Origin: an uncultured Bdellovibrionales bacterium
Lineage (GTDB): Bacteria > Patescibacteriota > Minisyncoccia > Moranbacterales > UBA1568
Assembly: GCA_964612055.1 (NCBI GenBank)
Contig: CAZTBI010000002.1
Location: 80,296 to 144,295 of the forward strand
Length of the DNA: 64,000 nt
Reading direction: 5' to 3'
The first letter of the stretch is position 1; each line of letters begins with the position of its first letter. The notes beneath the pieces were generated by a model that saw only the letters and a list, made by a program, of their open reading frames with translations, was not told the DNA's origin and searched no databases. This document shows, piece after piece, positions 1 through 9,867 of this stretch. The position numbers and the translations under genes are program-made.

Positions 1-1153
1 AGGGCTTGAAGGATGATCCTGGCTGACGATCACGGATAGCGACATTCACGTTACCATCGATAGAGTCATCAAAGTAGTCTTTGGAACCAACCATGGCGAG
101 TACCTGACCAGTTTTTGGATCCATAGCTACCAAAGCAGCATTAGAGGCTTTCCATCGGATATTTTTGGCGGCGCCTTCTCGGACAGCTTGTTCAGCAGCC
201 TCTTGTTTTTCCCAGTCGAGGGTGGTGATAACCTTGAGACCGCCCTGTTCTACAGCCTGATCGCCATACTTTTGCTGTAAGTAATCTTTGATATACATGA
301 CAAAATGCGGTGCGGCGATGATGTCTTTTTGAGGGAGGATCTTGTCGAGAGTTGGGGTCTCAATAGCGGTATTGGCTTGTTCTTCAGTGATATACCCGAG
401 CTTCATCATGGTACGAAGTGCGTAGTCTTTACGCCCAACGAGGGCATCGAGGTGAGATCCATAAGGAGAATAGTAAGCTGTGGCCTGAGGAAGGGCAGAA
501 ATAAGAGCCGCCTCATCAAGGGTGAGCTCTCGAGCCGGTTTGCCAAAAAAGGTCTGAGCAGCCGCCTCAATACCATAGGCATTGGAACCGTACGGGATTT
601 CATTTAAGTACATGGCCAAAATTTCGTCCTTGGAGAACTTCGTCTCCATTTCGATAGAGAGAATAACCTCCTTGATCTTGCGCGTGAGAGTTTTTTCGTT
701 GGTGAGGAGAGAGTTTTTGACAAACTGCTGTGTGATGGTCGATCCTCCCTGAGACTTCTCAAGGGTGATAATGTCGTTTAAAATGGATCGAATGATGGAG
801 GTAATCTTGATGCCGTGGTGGCTGTAGAAATCCTGATCCTCGAGGCTAATGGTGGCGTACTTAATAACATCCGGCATGTCAGAAAAAGGGATAATCGTAC
901 GTTTTTCCTCGCCATGCACCTCATAGAGAAGGTGGGTCCCGGTGCGGTCATAGATTTTGGTTGATTCTACGATGGCACGCTTGCTGATTTCGCCGGTATT
1001 CGGGAGATCTTTGGCAATATAGGCAAAGATAGAGCCAACTACCACAAAGCCAATGCCAAAAACGATCATTCCTATTCGGAAGAGTGTTCTCCAGATATGA
1101 TTTTTTGGCTTATCAAGGCCTGGAACTTGGCGTTTTCTGTGAAAAAATTTCAT
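1..1153 (-). CDS. Class A penicillin-binding protein (PBP1A-like); 5' part only, gene runs off the left window edge
   Basis: Minus-strand ATG at 1151-1153 gives MKFFHRKRQVPGLDKPKNHIW, then a TM helix (IGMIVFGIGFVVVGSIFAYIA). GT51 transglycosylase motifs follow: EDQDFYSHHGI, GGSTITQQ, RKIKE. No stop codon within the window. Confidence 0.8.
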   Translation of the reverse strand, partial: MKFFHRKRQVPGLDKPKNHIWRTLFRIGMIVFGIGFVVVGSIFAYIAKDLPNTGEISKRAIVESTKIYDRTGTHLLYEVHGEEKRTIIPFSDMPDVIKYATISLEDQDFYSHHGIKITSIIRSILNDIITLEKSQGGSTITQQFVKNSLLTNEKTLTRKIKEVILSIEMETKFSKDEILAMYLNEIPYGSNAYGIEAAAQTFFGKPARELTLDEAALISALPQATAYYSPYGSHLDALVGRKDYALRTMMKLGYITEEQANTAIETPTLDKILPQKDIIAAPHFVMYIKDYLQQKYGDQAVEQGGLKVITTLDWEKQEAAEQAVREGAAKNIRWKASNAALVAMDPKTGQVLAMVGSKDYFDDSIDGNVNVAIRDRQPGSSFKP

Positions 1154-1246: not shown

Positions 1247-2254
1247 TTATCGAGTCTTGAGTTTAGGGAAGATGCTTTTAAGAATTTCACTCGAAACATC
1301 GATGCCTTTACCTTCTACGAGCGGCTTCTCGTGCATGTTGTAGAAGGGATTGGGGTTAATTTCAATGATAACGTAGTCACTTTTGGCTGAAGAAATATCA
1401 TGAGCGAAGAAGTCTATGCCCCCATAGGTGAGACCAACAGCTTCAATGGCCCGTGCACATATATCTTTAAAATGAGGATGCATTTCCTTTGTGCGTTCAA
1501 TGGCCCTTCCACCGTCAGACATATTGAGATTGTTTCTGAGTTTGAAGAAATGCCCTTTCGGAAGAACCGATTTGAGAGTCAGTGAATGAAGTCGCAGAGT
1601 CTCTTTTGCAGTTTTATCAAGTTTAATTTCGAAACCAGGAAGTCTTTCAGCATCGAAGCGTTTAATAAGCTCTTCTATAGTAGAAGCTCCATCGCCAGTT
1701 ATCCCTGCAGAAATTTTCTGTACACACGAAAGAACCTTTCCTTGAAACACTAAGACGCGGTATTCATTCGCAACGAACATTTCTTCGATAAGGAATCTGA
1801 CCCGTGGGCGCTTTCCATATGCCCCTTTGGCGTGAGCTATGGCGACACGAAGTTCTTGAGGAGAAGCAATATCCCAGGTCACCCCTTTTGCTAAGGAGCC
1901 ATCAACAGGTTTGCAGATAAGAGGATATTTGAGCTTCCTTTCTTGGACAAGTCTGAGGGCTTCTTGGAGAGAAGTGGCTGTAAGTCCTTTAGGCGTCTTT
2001 ATATTTGAGGCATTGAGAACGGTTTTCGTAACTTCTTTATTTGTTGTGAGGTTTCCCATTCTTTTATAGATAGGAAGATTCCTTTTATAACAAAAAATAG
2101 CTCTTCCTCCATACTCAAGTTTCAGGATAGGGACCCCACCTTCCTCAATCATTTTTATTTGAATACCAAGTTCCACGGTCTTCTTCAGGAATGATTTAAA
2201 CCCTCCGTGCTTGATGTTTCTAATATATTCTTTTACAGTCATACTTTTATTCAA
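1247..2254 (-). CDS. ATP-grasp family ligase (RimK/cyanophycin-synthetase-like)
   Basis: 335 aa. ATP-grasp motifs KPVDGSLAKGV and EINPNP. Last gene of the operon with the two upstream minus-strand genes. Confidence 0.7.
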   Translation of the reverse strand: MNKSMTVKEYIRNIKHGGFKSFLKKTVELGIQIKMIEEGGVPILKLEYGGRAIFCYKRNLPIYKRMGNLTTNKEVTKTVLNASNIKTPKGLTATSLQEALRLVQERKLKYPLICKPVDGSLAKGVTWDIASPQELRVAIAHAKGAYGKRPRVRFLIEEMFVANEYRVLVFQGKVLSCVQKISAGITGDGASTIEELIKRFDAERLPGFEIKLDKTAKETLRLHSLTLKSVLPKGHFFKLRNNLNMSDGGRAIERTKEMHPHFKDICARAIEAVGLTYGGIDFFAHDISSAKSDYVIIEINPNPFYNMHEKPLVEGKGIDVSSEILKSIFPKLKTR

Positions 2255-2302
2255 AAGTTTAAAATCAACTTAGACGGCAGGTGTATAAAAGGGAATGAGA
2301 AA

Positions 2303-3697
2303 TTATTTGTTGATATCAATGAGAAATTTTCTCAAATGTTTTCTTCCTATGATGACAGGATATGTAAGGTGCCCACGGTCAATGCAAGAAACTTTAGCAG
2401 GCATTGTAACAGAATCAATAGTAAGCGTGACGAGAATCACTGGACGATAAGAATGTCCGTGAGACGATTTGACAGAGAAGGTATCTGCAAGATCCGGAAT
2501 ATCTTTAAAAAGTTTTTCACGTTCTTCCTTGGAGAGTTCGTTCACTATATCACGGCCAGCTATTTTTTCTTCGAATGTCTTAAGAACATCTTCAAATCCG
2601 AGCTCCTTTGCTAATGTAATATCGATAGAGGTGGAGTCGGCCCCGGTGTCGATTTTGGCCTCGACTTCAATTTCTTTGCCATCCTTTCCAATTAGCTTTA
2701 CTTTTTCAACGCCTCCAATAACGCGTTTACCAGAAAGCTCCTCGATTTCCTCCTCGATTTCTCCGCCGAAAAGATTTTGTCCCACGCGCATGCCACGTTC
2801 CGTTGACTTGATTTTCAGTCCAGCTACTCGCTTGAGGCGGCTTTTCAGCCCGGCCAAGTTAGCGAGCTGGATGGAGAGTCCTGGCCGAGCGTTGAGCTCC
2901 AAGATAACCGGTCCACGATCGCGGTCGATAGCAATATCGGCGCCAAGAAATCCCAGACCTGAAAGCGTCTGTGCTTCGACGGACATGCGTAAAATTTCTT
3001 TCCAATAGGGGATCTTGATACCAGAGAGCACCAGTCGTGTATCAGGGACATATTCGATCAAGTGACCCTTGCCGATGATGGCAGTCGTAGTAGTACCGGT
3101 AGCAAGGTCGATACCGACACCGATGGCTCCTTGCTGGAGATTAGCTTTGCCATCAGAGGCCTTGGTCGGTAGGCGGAGCATAGCCATGACAGGCACATGA
3201 TTGAAAACGATAACACGGATATCGGGAATACCTTTGTAGCTGTACGGTTTAAAAAGTTTCAAGAGTGTGAGGCGTTCTTCGAAAAAGGCGATATCCGGTG
3301 TGTTGGCCAAAGAAAACGAGCCATCAAGAATGTTTCTAATATGTGATTTCAGGTCTTCGACAGTAATGATAGAGCCATTGGCTTTGACCCAGGCGTCCTC
3401 ACGACCCTTCTTTTTGGCGTAGACAACGATGATGCCCTCACCGCCAAAACCACGGTTTGGTTTCAAGGCAAAACTACTAGGGAGTGAATTCCAATCAAAC
3501 TGCTCGAGCTCCTCATGGGTCTTTATCTTCGCAATGAGGGCTGAGACACCGAGGTTGTTTTTTTTCAGGAGACGTTTGCAGAGCAGCTTGTTGTCAGCGA
3601 TCTCCATCCCGCGCTTGCGGTTATTCGGTCGGATGTACTCCAAATTCCGGGCATTCATGCCGAGGAGCAACCCACTTTTTTTGAGGAAATCGAACAT
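2303..3697 (-). CDS. alpha-L-glutamate-ligase-like ATP-grasp protein fused to a C-terminal retropepsin-like (RimB/PF05618-like) domain
   Basis: 464 aa. N-terminus MNARNLEYIRP...KPNRGFGGEGIIV is a TIGR02291-like ATP-grasp. C-terminal about 110 aa contains IDTGADSTSI, the D-T-G-A aspartic protease motif. Confidence 0.7.
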   Translation of the reverse strand: MFDFLKKSGLLLGMNARNLEYIRPNNRKRGMEIADNKLLCKRLLKKNNLGVSALIAKIKTHEELEQFDWNSLPSSFALKPNRGFGGEGIIVVYAKKKGREDAWVKANGSIITVEDLKSHIRNILDGSFSLANTPDIAFFEERLTLLKLFKPYSYKGIPDIRVIVFNHVPVMAMLRLPTKASDGKANLQQGAIGVGIDLATGTTTTAIIGKGHLIEYVPDTRLVLSGIKIPYWKEILRMSVEAQTLSGLGFLGADIAIDRDRGPVILELNARPGLSIQLANLAGLKSRLKRVAGLKIKSTERGMRVGQNLFGGEIEEEIEELSGKRVIGGVEKVKLIGKDGKEIEVEAKIDTGADSTSIDITLAKELGFEDVLKTFEEKIAGRDIVNELSKEEREKLFKDIPDLADTFSVKSSHGHSYRPVILVTLTIDSVTMPAKVSCIDRGHLTYPVIIGRKHLRKFLIDINK

Positions 3698-3740
3698 ACA
3701 AGACAGAAAACAAAAAAGAAATCAATGGACAAGTGATTGT

Positions 3741-4400
3741 CTATTGAAGGTGACGAATAATTTTCCGGAAGCGGAGAAATTCGGTAATACGGAGACCGGT
3801 CCACTTACCAAGCGAGAAGTTGATAAGAAAAGTGAAAAGAATAATCCATGGGAAATGGAGCACCAGCGTCGTGAGGAAATCCCAACTGATAAGGTAGTAA
3901 CCAACAACGGAGATGATGAGTGTTTCGACAGCGAGAACAAGTGCGATCTTGCTTCCTTTCTCGATCTGAGTCGCGACGAATTTCTCCGCCAGCGTGATCA
4001 TGATGAGGAGCGGAAAGATCGAAACAGCGGCCAGTCCAGTGCGACGATACATACCTCCGATAACGAGGACACCGAGAATAGCGAGTGACACAATAGAAAC
4101 GGTGATGGCGACGCGGGGAAGATAGAGGAGTCGGAACTGTTTCATGAGGAGGCGAGACAGTGTCCCGACGAGGATGACCGAGACGAAGATAGCGATGCCG
4201 TATTTGATGCCATTGGGATCAAAGGCGAGGAGGGCAAAGGTGATGATGGAGGGGGTGTAGATGCCAAAGGCCTTGATCCCAATAACCTGACGAAAAAAAG
4301 CAACCAAGGTCACGACGATGGGTAACATCAAAAGAAGGGCCACGGTTTGGAGTGGTACTCCCTGCTCCACAATAAAGTTGATGAGTGGATGGTAGGACAT
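3741..4400 (-). CDS. Polytopic membrane protein, 7TM_transglut-like (no transglutaminase domain)
   Basis: 219 aa with about 6-7 predicted TM helices. First gene of the ATP-grasp operon. This architecture is characteristic of PF14402 gene neighbourhoods. Confidence 0.55.
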   Translation of the reverse strand: MSYHPLINFIVEQGVPLQTVALLLMLPIVVTLVAFFRQVIGIKAFGIYTPSIITFALLAFDPNGIKYGIAIFVSVILVGTLSRLLMKQFRLLYLPRVAITVSIVSLAILGVLVIGGMYRRTGLAAVSIFPLLIMITLAEKFVATQIEKGSKIALVLAVETLIISVVGYYLISWDFLTTLVLHFPWIILFTFLINFSLGKWTGLRITEFLRFRKIIRHLQ

Positions 4401-4430: not shown

Positions 4431-4922
4431 CTAGGAGTTTTTGATCGCTTCCATTTTTCTTCGGCTCGCATGACACAGGGCAATGGCGAGGGCATCTGCG
4501 GTGTCGTCTGGTTTTGGTATTGAGGGGAGTTTCAAAAGAGCCTTCACCATCAATTGTACCTGACTCTTATCGGCTCGCCCATAATTTGTCAACGCCTGTT
4601 TCACTTCGAGCGGAGTGTAACCGAAAATACTAACACGTAAATTCTCTAAAGTCAAGAGGATAACGCCGCGAGCTTGGGCAACAGAAATAATGGTTTTTTG
4701 ATTCTTAAAGAAGAACAATTCTTCGACCGCGGCTTCCTCTGGTTTATAGCGTTTGATAATAGCCTTCAGATCGTCGGCAATTTCTGCCAAGCGTTTTTCT
4801 GGCGCTAGTTCTTTGTCGGTACTGATATGTCCAAAAGCAATGGAAGTTGTTTTCCCGCCCACACTCTCTATTACGCCCCAGCCCACCGTTGCGGTGCCGG
4901 GATCAATACCGAGAATTCTCAT
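4431..4922 (-). CDS. ruvC: Holliday junction resolvase RuvC
   Basis: MRILGIDPGTATVGWGVIE catalytic N-terminus. The ORF track's alternative start at 4937 adds 5 aa. Confidence 0.9.
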   Translation of the reverse strand: MRILGIDPGTATVGWGVIESVGGKTTSIAFGHISTDKELAPEKRLAEIADDLKAIIKRYKPEEAAVEELFFFKNQKTIISVAQARGVILLTLENLRVSIFGYTPLEVKQALTNYGRADKSQVQLMVKALLKLPSIPKPDDTADALAIALCHASRRKMEAIKNS

Positions 4923-4949
4923 AAAAGAGTTTTTCAAAAGTCGCCAAGA

Positions 4950-5669
4950 CTAGGCGCGGTTGTCCCAGACGCGCTGAACATCAGGATGATCATCCAAGGT
5001 TTCGAGGAGTTTTTCTAAAGCAGGCAGATCGTTTTCAGCAGGGGTAGCCATTTGTGACGGGACATAGCCAAGCTCGGCACTCTCGCACACAAGATTCTTG
5101 CCGCGGAAGTATTCTTCAACAGACTGGAGCTTATCAATAGCGGTGATGACGACAAACACTTCGTCGGTAGTGAAAAAATCATCAGCACCGGATTCGAGCG
5201 TTTCCGTCTCTAGAGTTTCGGCAGAATGTTTTTCGAGTAAAAAAGTAATGAGGCCAACGCGACGAAACATGAAACTGACAGCGCCGGTGGGAACGAATTT
5301 TCCATTGCCCTTTGTGAGGATACTCTTCACTTCACTGACGGTGCGGTTCTTGTTGTCGGTAGCGGTCTCAATGAGGAGGGCGACTTGGCCGGGACCGTAG
5401 GCTTCGTAGGTGAGCTCCTCGATTTTGGCGCCGTCTTTCAGTTCGCCGGTACCGCGTTTGATAGCCCGATCGATATTGTCTTTGGGCATGTTGACGGCTT
5501 TGGCGGCATCAATAGCCATCTTGAGTGAGTAGTTGTTATCGGGATTTCCGCCACCAGCGGCAGCCGCGATGATGATATTGCGTCCATACTTGGTAAAAAC
5601 AGCAGCGCGTTTGGCATCGTTCAATCCTTTTTGGCGATGGGTAGTAGCCCAGTGTGAGTGTCCTGACAT
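4950..5669 (-). CDS. yebC: YebC/PmpR family DNA-binding transcriptional regulator
   Basis: 239 aa beginning MSGHSHWATTHRQKG, the typical DUF28/YebC N-terminus. Confidence 0.9.
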   Translation of the reverse strand: MSGHSHWATTHRQKGLNDAKRAAVFTKYGRNIIIAAAAGGGNPDNNYSLKMAIDAAKAVNMPKDNIDRAIKRGTGELKDGAKIEELTYEAYGPGQVALLIETATDNKNRTVSEVKSILTKGNGKFVPTGAVSFMFRRVGLITFLLEKHSAETLETETLESGADDFFTTDEVFVVITAIDKLQSVEEYFRGKNLVCESAELGYVPSQMATPAENDLPALEKLLETLDDHPDVQRVWDNRA

Positions 5670-5858: not shown

Positions 5859-6440
5859 TTACCGTTTTTTGTTGAAGACTGTTGCCATGTCGCGTATGTC
5901 GTCTTGGGCGGCCTGACGAGAAAGCGTCATGACATGATCTTTGACAGCGAAAGGATCGCCGACCTGACGAAAGGTAAAGCGTTCTTCTTCGGCAGCGGTC
6001 TGTACATAGACATCGCCAAAATTGAGGATAGTTGGGATGAGGCCATTGACGGAGCTCGTCACATCTTGGACGCGAGAAAAACGAAGCTCGCTAATACGAC
6101 GAGTGAAAAGTCCTCTTTGCTCAATATTCACAATGCGTTCGTTGGTAATAATCCAGACATCAAAGTAGTAATCAATCCAGACCAAGAAACTGTAGAGCCA
6201 AATAAAAAGAAGAAGAGTATTTTGAACAAAGAGAAAGAACGGCCAATTTTCTTCAGTGAGAGCTTCTGGGAAAAGGGTTGGGAGAAAGGCAATGCTTCCC
6301 ATAAGGAAGAAAGAGAGGAGGAGTACCATCCCAAGATGCATAACAATATTGAACCAGTGACGGTGAATAATCCGGAGGACGGTCTCGTTTTCATGTTGCC
6401 CCTGAAAGTGGTGGCGGCCAAGTGGCGTGGAAGGAGACAT
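5859..6440 (-). CDS. Membrane protein with bacterial PH (YdbT/DUF304-like) domain
   Basis: Two TM helices followed by a PH-like region (ITNERIVNIEQRGLFTRRISELRFSRVQDV). Confidence 0.55.
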   Translation of the reverse strand: MSPSTPLGRHHFQGQHENETVLRIIHRHWFNIVMHLGMVLLLSFFLMGSIAFLPTLFPEALTEENWPFFLFVQNTLLLFIWLYSFLVWIDYYFDVWIITNERIVNIEQRGLFTRRISELRFSRVQDVTSSVNGLIPTILNFGDVYVQTAAEEERFTFRQVGDPFAVKDHVMTLSRQAAQDDIRDMATVFNKKR

Positions 6441-8097: not shown

Positions 8098-9867
8098 CTA
8101 TTTTCCGCGACCGCCGCTTTTCTCAAGAGTTTCTTGGATACCAACATCGGAAAGGATGTCATCGTAGAGGCTTTGGAGGGATTCTTCTTTGCCGGCGCTG
8201 TTCCAAACCTCATCCATGGTGGTGATACCGTCGATGACTTTCAGTATCCCATCCTGGCTCATCGTGAGCATGCCATCTTCTATCGCTGCTTTGCGAATTT
8301 CGTTTTCGAGCGCTCCATCAGAAATAAGTCCAGCCATTTTTTCATTGACGGGAAAGACTTCAAAAATACCTTTACGGCCTCGGTAACCGTTTAAGTTACA
8401 CTCACTGCACCCCACAGGTTTGTAGAGGGTGGGGATATCATCCGGAACCTTGACTCCTGCCTTTGGCGAAATGAAAGAGAGAATTTTTTTGATAGCATCA
8501 ACGGTTTTTTGGGCCGGAGCATAGGCCACTTTGCACTTGGGGCAGAGGATGCGTACCAAGCGCTGGGCGATAAAGATAGTCACGCCCGTAGCAATGGATG
8601 ATGGTTTCGATCCGAGTTCCAGGAGACGAGCGATCGATGCGGCGGCGCTATTGGTGTGAAGAGTGGAGAAAACTAAGTGACCGGTGAGCGCTGCGTTAAT
8701 CGCGATATCAGCTGTTTCCTCATCACGAATTTCTCCCACCAAGATAACGTCAGGATCCTGACGGACGATAGCGCGCAGTCCTTGCGCGAAGGTGTAGTTT
8801 TTGTCTTTGGAGACTTCTGTCTGAACGATACCGGGAAGCACGTATTCTATCGGATCTTCGATGGTAATAATCTTGAGTGATTTATCATTCACGCTATTCA
8901 AAAGGCTGTAGAGAGTGGTCGTTTTTCCGGAACCCGTTGGTCCGGTATTTAGGATCATGCCAAAAGGCTTTTCGATTTGTCGTTTCACTTCATCGTACGC
9001 CCGACCGCGAAGCCCGAGTTCTTCGACTGGCACAAAGGCTTCTTCGCCAGTGAGGAGCCGCATGTTGATGCTTTCGCCGTTATTGCCAGGAATGATGTTG
9101 ACGCGGATATCGATGTGGTGCTCTCCGAGTTCTGCAGAAAAATGACCATCTTGAGAACGATTGCGAATATTGATTTTCATTTTCGCCATCATCTTCACTC
9201 GGGAAAGCGCTAACTGATAGACGGACTTAGGAAGGTTCCCGACTTCTTGTAAGACGCCATCAATACGGTAGCGCAGACGAACATTTTCTCCGAAAGGCTC
9301 GAAGTGGATATCGCTTGAGCGGAGTTTGTAAGCACCGGCGAGAATGATTTCCAAAATGCGGGAAGTAGGAATGCTGGAAGAATCTTTGTTCAGCTGTAAG
9401 AGGTCTCCGAAATCTTGTTCAAATTTTTCGAGGTCAGGGCCAGAAAGAGAAACGTGCATGAAGTCGAGACTTTCGATCAAAGGTTTCTTTTCGTACTCCA
9501 TCCAAACTTTTTCGAGTGATGGTTGTGAAACAAGAAAGAAGTCAGCTTCTAGGTCATGGCTCTTGGCAAAGGTATCGAAGAACTCCAGGGCCTCAGCATT
9601 CTTTGGATCAGTGATGGCGACACGGAGCTTTGGACGTTCTTTCTGAAAGATGACCGCTCCCAGGCGTTTCGAATCCTCCTCCGAGAGCATGAGCACTGCT
9701 TCTTGGTCAAGAGGGAAGATAGAAAGATCGAGGTAGCGCATGCCAAGCTCGCTTGCAGTACGAGCGGTAGTTTCTTCTATAGACTGCGAACGCATTTTAT
9801 CGAGAACGCCCTGAGTTTTTTCGTCAGAAACGGTATGCGTCGGTTCTTGATGAACAACCTTGACCAT
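8098..9867 (-). CDS. pilB: GspE/PilB-family type II/IV secretion ATPase (copy 1)
   Basis: 589 aa. N-terminal T2SSE_N-like region, Walker A GPTGSGKTTT, and a tetra-Cys motif CPKC...CSEC. Confidence 0.9.
   Translation of the reverse strand: MVKVVHQEPTHTVSDEKTQGVLDKMRSQSIEETTARTASELGMRYLDLSIFPLDQEAVLMLSEEDSKRLGAVIFQKERPKLRVAITDPKNAEALEFFDTFAKSHDLEADFFLVSQPSLEKVWMEYEKKPLIESLDFMHVSLSGPDLEKFEQDFGDLLQLNKDSSSIPTSRILEIILAGAYKLRSSDIHFEPFGENVRLRYRIDGVLQEVGNLPKSVYQLALSRVKMMAKMKINIRNRSQDGHFSAELGEHHIDIRVNIIPGNNGESINMRLLTGEEAFVPVEELGLRGRAYDEVKRQIEKPFGMILNTGPTGSGKTTTLYSLLNSVNDKSLKIITIEDPIEYVLPGIVQTEVSKDKNYTFAQGLRAIVRQDPDVILVGEIRDEETADIAINAALTGHLVFSTLHTNSAAASIARLLELGSKPSSIATGVTIFIAQRLVRILCPKCKVAYAPAQKTVDAIKKILSFISPKAGVKVPDDIPTLYKPVGCSECNLNGYRGRKGIFEVFPVNEKMAGLISDGALENEIRKAAIEDGMLTMSQDGILKVIDGITTMDEVWNSAGKEESLQSLYDDILSDVGIQETLEKSGGRGK

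What the first reader, a model, noticed from the sequence alone, without database searches (positions are those of the whole stretch)
1247..4400. Three-gene operon: 7TM membrane protein + ATP-grasp fused to a retropepsin-like domain + second ATP-grasp (predicted peptide/poly-amino-acid ligase system)
Gene content and order on the minus strand: 3741-4400 is a polytopic membrane protein, 2303-3697 is an alpha-L-glutamate-ligase-like ATP-grasp with a C-terminal DTGA retropepsin-like domain, and 1247-2254 is a second ATP-grasp.

This matches the comparative-genomics neighbourhood described for Pfam 7TM_transglut (PF14402) with ATP-grasp and the PF05618 'Zn_protease'/RimB-like domain. That neighbourhood is predicted to ligate amino acids or peptides onto a membrane or extracytoplasmic target, by analogy with RimK poly-Glu tailing of S6.

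No member of the system has been characterised biochemically. This version is also minimal: the 7TM protein lacks the usual inactive transglutaminase domain, and the retropepsin-like domain is fused to a ligase.
Basis: partly seen in the sequence, partly recalled or inferred. Interest (0 to 1): 0.75.

Follow-up and report, generated by a model that had tools for sequence, protein, structure and literature searches.

The report
Minimal fused Rlo-like peptide-ligase system
A candidate-phylum (Moranbacteria) genome carries a stripped-down, fused version of the recently named Rlo system: a membrane protein, an amino-acid ligase joined to a retrovirus-type protease, and a second ligase. This makes it a simple natural model for a system whose chemistry is still unknown.

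Summary
Three minus-strand genes lie at the stated coordinates.

- **3741-4400:** a 219-aa membrane protein (PF14402, E=1.7e-26) without the transglutaminase domain.
- **2303-3697:** a 464-aa RloC-type ATP-grasp ligase (PF14397, 2e-71; TIGR02291, 1e-85) fused to a retropepsin-like domain with an intact DTGA motif (PF05618, 2.3e-9).
- **1247-2242:** a 331-aa ATP-grasp ligase like the G domain of cyanophycin synthetase.

The neighbourhood is the predicted one. The claim that no member is characterised is out of date. It is now the rloABC system of Pseudomonas (2025): the protease RloA cuts poly-glutamate, and loss of RloB or RloC suppresses the defects caused by losing RloA. A RimB-RimK hybrid is also known.

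Across 51 related loci fetched here, the membrane gene and the fusion gene are always adjacent. The third gene is a variable accessory. Relatives carry none to three extra ATP-grasp genes, and some carry Mur-type ligases or MATCAP-like peptidases.

My best reading: a membrane-docked ligase makes an acidic, probably glutamate-rich peptide. The fused protease stimulates and trims it, and the membrane protein passes it to the envelope.

It is a new variant of a known kind. Interest is moderate.

The parts
3741..4400 (-). RloB-like 7TM membrane protein (219 aa) without the inactive transglutaminase domain
   Evidence: PF14402 at E=1.7e-26. NF052267 RloB matches only positions 308-507 of 508. Seven helices in the AF2 model, which has low confidence. 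Always directly upstream of the fusion gene in related loci. 35 residues are at least 95% identical across 41 loci down to 33% identity, including R37, R83, E139, E159 and the C-terminal G202-L203-R204..E207..R210-F211.
2303..3697 (-). Fusion protein (464 aa): RloC-type ATP-grasp ligase, acidic linker and retropepsin-like domain
   Evidence: The N-terminal 30 residues are conserved, so the start at 3697 is right.
2825..3649 (-). ATP-grasp ligase domain (residues 17-291), ATPgrasp_ST / TIGR02291 type
   Evidence: PF14397 at 240.9 bits; TIGR02291 at 287.5 bits (cut-off 314.2). K79, the G83-G88 loop, E140, E141, R161, D254, E267, N269 and R271 are invariant in 33 homologues. Foldseek matches RimK structures 4iwx, 7qyr and 5zct.
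2714..2782 (-). Conserved acidic linker (residues 306-328, GQNLFGGEIEEEIEELSGKRVIG)
   Evidence: G311, G312, E313, E315, E316 and E319 are invariant in close homologues. The linker is conserved in many, but not the most distant, family members. pI 4.2.
2306..2713 (-). Retropepsin-like (RimB/RloA-like, PF05618) domain, residues 329-464. The catalytic DTGA is at residues 350-353 (nt 2639-2650).
   Evidence: PF05618 at E=2.3e-9; RloA3 NF052264 at E=2.5e-10. phmmer hits 9g58 RloA at E=2.6e-4. pLDDT is 80-92, and the top Foldseek hits are 2pma, 9g58 and the Ddi1 retroviral-protease-like domain. K348, D350, R418 and R441 align with RloA K46, D48, R114 and R137 (with PMC12239564).
1247..2242 (-). Accessory ATP-grasp ligase (331 aa) like the G domain of cyanophycin synthetase. 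An alternative TTG start lies at 2254.
   Evidence: TIGR02068 at E=3.4e-56 (190.8 bits, cut-off 850); GshAB C-terminal domain at 2.6e-42. PDB 7lg5 CphA1 residues 216-481 at E=7e-36. Present in this slot in about 20 of the 45 loci tabulated.
1..1153 (-). Context: 5' part of a class A penicillin-binding protein gene (runs off the window), 93 nt downstream of the accessory ligase
   Evidence: The translation shows glycosyltransferase-51 motifs. The identical contig L001 carries the full 844-aa gene with Transgly, Transpeptidase and Big_7 domains. This gene follows the ligase set in most Moranbacteria loci.
4431..4937 (-). Context: ruvC, ending 30 nt upstream of the 7TM gene on the same strand
   Evidence: with PF02075 on the orthologous genes in L048 and L051. 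This synteny is limited to Moranbacteria.

Best explanation
This is a minimal, fused version of the Rlo (RloA/RloB/RloC) system in a Moranbacteria (Patescibacteria) genome.

Proposed mechanism:

1. The N-terminal RloC-type ATP-grasp domain of the 464-aa protein uses ATP to add amino acids, most probably L-glutamate, one at a time to a carboxylate end. This builds an acidic alpha-linked peptide in the cytoplasm.
2. The C-terminal retropepsin-like domain dimerises between two ligase subunits. Like RimB with RimK, it both stimulates the ligase and cuts the acidic chain, which sets its length or recycles it.
3. The 219-aa 7TM protein is the obligate membrane partner. It docks the ligase through its conserved cytoplasmic loops and C-terminal helix, and it hands the product to or across the membrane.
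4. The second ligase, like the cyanophycin synthetase G domain, adds a different residue as a primer, cap or branch. This step varies between relatives.

Shown here: domain identities, intact catalytic and acid-binding residues, strict 7TM-fusion linkage, and a variable accessory slot.

Inferred: the substrate (Glu), the stimulating and trimming role of the protease, export by the 7TM protein, and an envelope-related function.
For: The ligase is RloC-type, not RimK-type: TIGR02291 scores 287.5 bits against 41.3 bits for TIGR00768.

ATP-grasp catalytic residues are invariant. The protease keeps D350-T-G-A. It also keeps K348, R418 and R441, which align with the poly-Glu-binding K46, R114 and R137 of RloA (PMC12239564 section 8). 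Across the family these residues are kept together with DTG (32-34 of 37) and lost together with it (Arg kept in 7 of 66).

The domain has a single Cys and no signal peptide. It follows a cytoplasmic ATP-using domain, so it should be cytosolic like RimB (PMC12239564 section 7).

RimB raises RimK ATPase activity fourfold and is needed for free poly-alpha-Glu of up to 28-36 residues. A RimBK hybrid is protease-active (PMC11957791 sections 5, 8).

In P. aeruginosa, loss of rloB or rloC suppresses the triple rloA deletion. The ligase and the 7TM protein therefore make, or place, what the protease removes (PMC12239564 section 11).

The 7TM gene is adjacent to the fusion gene in every locus with upstream sequence, down to 33% identity. 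Conserved charged residues in the 7TM protein sit in its predicted cytoplasmic loops, in one helix (E159) and in the C-terminal helix.

Divergent homologues of the second ligase sit in the same cluster.
Against: No ligase product is known for any RloC-type enzyme, so glutamate is an analogy only. TIGR02291 falls just below its curated cut-off (287.5 against 314.2).

The second ligase resembles enzymes that add Asp (CphA) or Gly (GshB), so the product may not be poly-Glu.

The 7TM model is poor (pLDDT 57.6). Neither its topology nor a transport role is shown, and it could be only an anchor or the acceptor.

In Pseudomonas the protease works in the periplasm. Moving it to the cytoplasm may change the logic of the system.

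The region that forms the flaps in RloA is a roughly 45-residue helical, acidic insert in this protein, so specificity may differ.
Confidence: 0.45

Rival explanations
1. Cell-wall peptide chemistry. The ATP-grasp ligases add amino acids to a peptidoglycan or other lipid-linked envelope precursor, for example a side branch or cross-bridge as the ATP-grasp D-aspartate ligase of Enterococcus does. The 7TM protein holds them at the membrane. The variable ligase set gives strain-specific wall peptides used by the adjacent class A PBP.
For: A class A PBP gene follows the ligase set on the same strand in most Moranbacteria loci, 93 nt away here with no terminator. The number and type of ligases vary between close relatives, from none to three extra ATP-grasp genes, with one Mur-type ligase and one GT4, as is typical of surface structures. 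Rlo mutants in Pseudomonas have cell-shape and beta-lactam phenotypes (PMC12239564 sections 10-12). The Enterococcus ligase is cited from my own knowledge and was not checked here.
Against: PBP and RuvC linkage disappears in more distant CPR loci that still keep the 7TM-fusion pair. A poly-acid-binding endopeptidase fused to the ligase has no obvious role in precursor synthesis. No Mur or Fem gene occurs in the window operon.
Confidence: 0.15
2. A RimBK-like ribosome modifier. [quoted passage not shown] The 7TM protein only localises or regulates it.
For: The ligase and protease are both cytoplasmic and fused, as in the RimBK hybrid, which is active on glutamylated S6 (PMC11957791 section 5). 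The poly-Glu-binding residues are kept. Foldseek matches RimK.
Against: The ligase scores 41.3 bits on the RimK family model against a cut-off of 143.4, but 287.5 bits on the RloC-type model. The domain order is the reverse of RimBK. The strict pairing with a 7TM gene is not a feature of rim loci. No rpsF lies in the window, so the S6 tail could not be checked.
Confidence: 0.1
3. Amidation of a surface polysaccharide. As the Pfam name 'sugar-transfer associated ATP-grasp' suggests, the ligases attach amino acids to uronic-acid carboxylates of a glycan that the 7TM protein helps to export.
For: This is the Pfam family name and NCBI's product name. A GT4 glycosyltransferase sits in the accessory slot of four loci.
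Against: The window operon and most loci contain no glycosyltransferase or sugar-nucleotide gene. The recurrent partners are peptidases (retropepsin, MATCAP-like, M29), which points to a peptide product.
Confidence: 0.08
4. A cyanophycin-like storage polymer made by the second ligase, with the fusion protein remodelling it.
For: The best match of the 331-aa protein is the cyanophycin synthetase G domain. Some sources annotate homologues as cyanophycin synthetase. One locus (L026) has a separate Mur-type ligase, the other catalytic module of cyanophycin synthetase.
Against: The N domain and the Arg-adding M domain are absent (331 aa; 190.8 bits against a cut-off of 850). The gene is missing from more than half of the related loci, while the core pair persists.
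Confidence: 0.05

Closest known systems
rloABC operon of Pseudomonas aeruginosa (Lormand et al. 2025, mBio, PMC12239564)
   Same: The same three protein families occur together: the 7TM_transglut membrane domain (RloB), a TIGR02291/ATPgrasp_ST ligase (RloC) and a PF05618 retropepsin-like protease (RloA). The catalytic Asp and the K/R/R poly-Glu-binding residues are conserved.
   Different: The 7TM protein lacks the periplasmic inactive transglutaminase domain. The protease is not a separate secreted protein with a signal peptide and a disulfide; it is fused to the C-terminus of the cytoplasmic ligase. An extra ligase like the cyanophycin synthetase G domain is present. The host is a CPR bacterium, whereas RloB was reported as 96% proteobacterial.
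RimK-RimB and the RimBK hybrid (Little et al. 2025, JBC, PMC11957791)
   Same: A cytoplasmic ATP-grasp glutamate-type ligase is physically coupled to a retropepsin-like protease. A natural fusion of the two exists and is protease-active. The protease stimulates polymer synthesis.
   Different: The ligase here is RloC-type, not RimK (41 bits on TIGR00768). The domain order is ligase then protease, the reverse of RimBK. The pairing with a 7TM gene is obligatory here and rim loci have none. The target is unknown rather than ribosomal protein S6.
Cyanophycin synthetase CphA1, G domain (PDB 7lg5), and the ATP-grasp domain of GshAB
   Same: The 331-aa second ligase aligns with the whole G domain (residues 216-481) and with the C-terminal domain of GshAB. 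These enzymes extend a peptide at its C-terminal carboxylate.
   Different: It is a stand-alone domain with no N or M domain, and it is far below the family cut-offs.
Comparative-genomics neighbourhood of Pfam PF14402 / PF14397 / PF05618 (Iyer et al. 2009, Mol Biosyst; the paper could not be read here)
   Different: The fused and transglutaminase-less architecture, and the variable multi-ligase slot in CPR genomes, were established here from loci. I could not check whether that paper already lists them.

Membership tests
RloABC system | RloC: cytoplasmic ATP-grasp of the TIGR02291 / PF14397 type | tested here: met
   PF14397 scores 240.9 bits against a cut-off of 31.4. TIGR02291 has E=1.1e-85 but 287.5 bits, just under the curated cut-off of 314.2. 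This makes it a family member but a distant one.
RloABC system | RloB: 7TM_transglut membrane domain | tested here: met
   PF14402 scores 93.6 bits against a cut-off of 25.
RloABC system | RloB: N-terminal periplasmic inactive transglutaminase domain | tested here: not met
   The protein is 219 aa. It aligns only to positions 308-507 of 508 of NF052267 (78 bits, cut-off 900). No Transglut_core hit was found.
RloABC system | RloA: retropepsin fold with a catalytic D-T-G and the K46/R114/R137 acid-binding residues | tested here: met
   PF05618 scores 37.7 bits against a cut-off of 27. The alignment to 9g58 places D350, K348, R418 and R441 on these residues. Top fold matches are 2pma and 9g58.
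RloABC system | RloA: separate secreted protein with a signal peptide and a conserved disulfide pair | tested here: not met
   The domain is the C-terminal part of a 464-aa ORF, after an ATP-grasp domain. It has one Cys only. The NCBIfam RloA1-3 models score 27-40 bits against cut-offs of 210-280.
RloABC system | Loss of the ligase or the 7TM protein suppresses the protease-loss phenotype (osmotic, envelope) | not testable with these tools
   This needs genetics, and the organism is uncultured.
RimK-RimB / RimBK | RimK-family alpha-L-glutamate ligase | tested here: not met
   TIGR00768 scores 41.3 bits against a cut-off of 143.4, and PRK10446 scores 14 bits.
RimK-RimB / RimBK | RimB domain at the N-terminus of the ligase (hybrid), or a separate adjacent gene | tested here: not met
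   The protease domain is C-terminal.
RimK-RimB / RimBK | [quoted passage not shown] | not testable with these tools
   No rpsF lies in the window, and no biochemistry is available.
Cyanophycin synthetase (second ligase) | ATP-grasp G domain | tested here: met
   TIGR02068 residues 210-474 at E=3.4e-56. PDB 7lg5 at E=7e-36.
Cyanophycin synthetase (second ligase) | N domain and Mur-ligase-like M domain in the same protein | tested here: not met
   The protein is 331 aa and scores 190.8 bits against a cut-off of 850.
Anti-phage defence systems (PADLOC) | Any match to a defence-system protein model | tested here: not met
   None of the three proteins gave a hit.

The most novel reading that the evidence does not exclude
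The 7TM protein and the ligase-protease fusion are the core of a ribosome-independent peptide assembly line. Relatives carry between one and four ATP-grasp ligases in all, sometimes a Mur-type ligase, and editing peptidases (retropepsin, MATCAP-like, M29). Together these would build a strain-variable heteropeptide, not simple poly-Glu, that is delivered to the cell envelope of these tiny episymbiotic bacteria. The recurrent ATP-grasp and MATCAP pairing would then be a bacterial counterpart, and possibly the source, of the eukaryotic tubulin-tail ligase/peptidase cycle (TTL with MATCAP).
Probability: 0.2. Interest if true: 0.8.

Novelty: new variant of a known kind. Interest (0 to 1): 0.5.

Why it matters
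The Rlo system affects osmotic tolerance, biofilm formation, cell shape and beta-lactam sensitivity in Pseudomonas. What its ligase makes and what its membrane protein does are unknown.

The variant found here reduces the system to two core proteins.

- The fusion argues that the ligase and the protease work in direct physical contact.
- The variant shows that the transglutaminase domain and a periplasmic protease are dispensable, while the 7TM-ligase pair is not.
- It offers a small, cysteine-poor construct for reconstitution.

The system is retained in about 1-Mb CPR genomes (genome size from general knowledge, not measured here). It has a fast-changing set of extra ligases next to a cell-wall synthase gene. 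Both facts suggest an important envelope-related role in a group of bacteria whose surface chemistry is almost unknown.

Tried and rejected
1. **Fold search of the 7TM protein.** The AF2 model was too poor (mean pLDDT 57.6), because the allowed alignment was shallow (at least 75% identity). I did not search with it.
2. **Self-cleavage or pseudosubstrate role for the acidic linker EIEEEIEE.** It has at most three contiguous Glu. RimB needs five to six and RloA needs eight, and bulky residues block cleavage (PMC11957791 section 7; PMC12239564 section 8). The motif also decays in distant homologues. I kept this only as a low-probability idea.
3. **Operon boundaries.** Promoter and terminator scans gave nothing above the shuffle expectation. 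The AG2-PBP spacer does not fold better than shuffles (z=-0.22). No clear Shine-Dalgarno motifs were seen.
4. **Defence-system reading.** PADLOC gave no hit.
5. **Precursor-peptide (RiPP) reading.** The intergenic gaps are 30, 43, 48-60 and 93 nt, which leaves no room for a small ORF.
6. **Other copies or rpsF in the window.** None found.
7. **The 2009 comparative-genomics paper (PMC3268129).** It is not held. Searches for the Pfam names, for Patescibacteria with RimK, and for MATCAP with ATP-grasp found nothing relevant.
8. **A flaw in my own flank query.** My tblastn query for the PBP flank was translated one base out of frame. The PBP assignment therefore rests.
Full report
**What is there**

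The first (3741-4400, 219 aa) matches Pfam 7TM_transglut at E=1.7e-26. It matches only the last 200 of 508 positions of the NCBIfam RloB model. It is therefore the membrane domain alone, without the transglutaminase-like domain. A low-confidence AF2 model shows seven helices plus a C-terminal amphipathic helix. By the positive-inside rule the N-terminus is outside and the C-terminus inside (inference).

The second (2303-3697, 464 aa) has two domains.
- The N-terminal ATP-grasp domain is of the ATPgrasp_ST / TIGR02291 type (E=2e-71 and 1.1e-85).
- The C-terminal domain is of the PF05618 type (E=2.3e-9), with DTGA at residues 350-353.

The C-terminal domain hits the RloA crystal structures 9G58 and 9G59 by sequence. 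It is the well-modelled part of the AF2 model (pLDDT 80-92). Foldseek ranks Lpg0085 (2pma), RloA (9g58) and the retroviral-protease-like domain of Ddi1 first, followed by RimK for the N-terminal domain.

The third (1247-2242, 331 aa, with a possible TTG start at 2254) is an ATP-grasp. Its best relatives are the G domain of cyanophycin synthetase (E=3.4e-56; PDB 7lg5, E=7e-36) and the ligase domain of GshAB.

**Organism and conservation**

Close homologues are annotated as Candidatus Moranbacteria/Moraniibacteriota, in the Patescibacteria.

The fusion is a single ORF in more than 100 sequence clusters at 72% identity or more. It is also a single ORF in 45 species-representative genome loci.

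The 7TM gene lies immediately upstream of the fusion gene in every locus that has upstream sequence. This holds down to 33% identity. It also holds in loci labelled Paceibacteria and Parcubacteria, and in three loci (L043, L045, L046) whose records name other phyla or none.

The second ligase is not conserved in the same way.
- It fills the slot after the fusion gene in about 20 loci.
- About as many loci carry a different ATP-grasp type instead (GSH-S/RimK-like, often two in tandem or a 600-aa double).
- Six loci have both types.
- Some add MATCAP-like metallopeptidases, HExxH-motif proteins with no Pfam match, a GT4 glycosyltransferase or a Mur-type ligase.
- A few have no accessory ligase at all.

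The reverse test gives the same picture. Two divergent homologues of the second ligase (53% identity) again sit inside RuvC / 7TM / fusion / ATP-grasp / PBP clusters. One of these clusters has four ATP-grasp genes in a row.

RuvC upstream and a class A PBP downstream are conserved only within Moranbacteria. In the window the gaps are 30, 43, 48-60 and 93 nt. No promoter or terminator signal rises above chance, so the transcription unit may be larger than three genes.

**The wider family**

I ran an exhaustive search of 1.84 billion representative proteins with the fusion protein. It gave 2292 relatives at E<0.001 and 438 at E<1e-30. Among the 150 best matches listed, the recurrent architectures are these.
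- Stand-alone ligases of about 300-330 aa.
- Fusions of about 460-500 aa, like the one here.
- Proteins of about 780-820 aa in which a MATCAP (PF08014) metallopeptidase domain follows the retropepsin-like domain.

Of 50 MATCAP-bearing representatives, 46 have lost the D-T/S-G motif. Of 30 fusions in the 441-520 aa range, 23 keep it.

The residues that align with the poly-glutamate-binding K46, R114 and R137 of RloA are K348, R418 and R441 here. They are kept in 32-34 of 37 DTG-positive proteins. The two arginines are kept in only 7 of 66 DTG-negative ones.

The window protein is therefore of the catalytically competent, acid-binding kind. The retropepsin fold is retained even where catalysis is lost, which suggests that it also has a non-catalytic role.

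**What is known**

The neighbourhood is now the rloABC operon of P. aeruginosa (PMC12239564).
- RloA proteases are secreted dimeric retropepsins that cut runs of eight or more glutamates in vitro.
- The triple rloA mutant cannot grow in low-salt medium, and it has biofilm, antibiotic and shape defects.
- Deleting rloB (transglutaminase-7TM) or rloC (ATP-grasp) suppresses these defects.
- The product of RloC and the role of RloB are unknown.

In the related Rim system, RimB cuts poly-glutamate tails and raises RimK ATPase activity fourfold. RimB is needed for free poly-alpha-glutamate. [quoted passage not shown] A transposon study in Shewanella linked the transglutaminase-7TM gene to membrane-vesicle production (PMC12096838).

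The core chemistry is still open.

**How it most likely works**

I propose that the ligase domain builds an acidic, probably glutamate-rich, alpha-linked peptide in the cytoplasm. The fused protease domain, paired across two subunits, both stimulates and trims the peptide, as RimB does for RimK. The 7TM protein docks the enzyme and passes the product to or through the membrane. The second ligase adds a different residue.

Shown here:
- the domain identities;
- invariant ATP-grasp residues (K79, E140, E141, D254, E267, N269, R271);
- the intact protease and acid-binding residues;
- the strict 7TM-fusion pairing;
- the variable accessory slot.

Inferred by analogy: the amino acid used, the stimulation, the export step and the envelope role.

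A cytoplasmic location for the protease follows from three facts. It sits after an ATP-dependent domain. It has no signal peptide. It lacks the cysteine pair found in periplasmic RloA proteins (PMC12239564).

This fits an organism that I take, from general knowledge, to lack an outer membrane. Both periplasmic parts of the Pseudomonas system, the transglutaminase domain and the secreted protease, are missing or relocated.

**Rivals**

I considered four rivals.
- Modification of a peptidoglycan or lipid-linked precursor. The PBP linkage and the strain-variable ligases support it. Loss of that linkage in distant loci weakens it.
- A RimBK-like modifier of ribosomal protein S6. The ligase type, the domain order and the obligatory 7TM partner argue against it.
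- Amino-acid decoration of a polysaccharide. This is the Pfam name, but glycosyltransferases are rare in these loci and peptidases are common.
- A cyanophycin-like polymer. The N and M domains are absent, and the gene is dispensable.

**Comparison and novelty**

By domain content this works like Rlo and like RimBK. It fails defining features of each: no transglutaminase domain, no secreted protease, a ligase that is not RimK-type, and reversed domain order.

It is best described as a new variant of a known kind. The core is a two-gene 'RloB-minimal plus RloC-RloA fusion', with a variable ligase and peptidase slot, and it is widespread in Moranbacteria and present in other Patescibacteria. I found no paper describing it. 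I could not read the 2009 comparative-genomics paper that first predicted the neighbourhood.

**Dead ends**
- The 7TM structure model was too weak for a fold search.
- The conserved acidic linker (GGEIEEEIEEL) does not meet the known cleavage rules, and it decays in distant relatives.
- PADLOC gave no defence-system match.
- The window holds no second copy of any of these genes and no rpsF.

Noticed in passing
Related proteins P0249, P0243, P0258, P0261 and others (not in the window): About 800-aa triple fusions join an ATPgrasp_ST ligase, a retropepsin-like domain and a MATCAP (PF08014, tubulin detyrosinase family) metallopeptidase. 46 of 50 have lost the D-T/S-G catalytic motif of the middle domain. 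The pairing of an ATP-grasp ligase with a MATCAP peptidase recalls the eukaryotic TTL/MATCAP tubulin-tail cycle.
   Followed up: partly
L004-L047, L048-L052, downstream of the fusion gene: The slot between the fusion gene and the PBP gene is highly variable between related genomes. It holds none to three extra ATP-grasp genes of at least three types, MATCAP-like genes, HExxH-motif proteins with no Pfam hit, a GT4 glycosyltransferase (L020-L022, L041) or a Mur-type ligase (L026).
   Followed up: partly
window 1-1153 (-) and 4431-5669 (-): The cluster is flanked on the same strand by yebC and ruvC upstream and by a class A penicillin-binding protein gene downstream. This synteny is conserved across Moranbacteria but not in more distant CPR loci.
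   Followed up: partly
L043 3176-5179 and 6989-7990; L045 3494-5371, 6959-7993 and 12848-14050: In these distant loci the 7TM protein has an unassigned N-terminal extension of about 130 aa, and a separate Transglut_core protein lies two genes upstream. This looks like an intermediate between the RloB architecture and the minimal one. L045 also has an M29 aminopeptidase in the cluster.
   Followed up: partly
Record titles of L005, L010, L011, L014, L016, L017, L019 and others: Many TPA_asm MAG records are titled 'uncultured Bdellovibrionales bacterium'. Their loci are nevertheless 70-88% identical in protein sequence, and syntenic, to Moranbacteria genomes. The taxonomic labels are probably wrong.
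   Followed up: no
window 2001-2500: GC content drops to 0.36 here against 0.44-0.50 in the surrounding region. The stretch covers the 3' end of the fusion gene and the 5' end of the second ligase gene.
   Followed up: no
window 8098-9867 (-) and 5859-6440 (-): From the translations alone, the 589-aa ORF looks like a PilB/GspE-type secretion ATPase (it has a GPTGSGKTT Walker A motif), and the 193-aa ORF looks like a small membrane protein. Neither was checked with profiles.
   Followed up: no
window 2469-3008 (+) and 3429-4088 (+): Long antisense ORFs (179 and 219 aa) overlap the fusion gene and the 7TM gene. Their translations are low-complexity and nothing supports them, so they are most likely spurious.
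   Followed up: no
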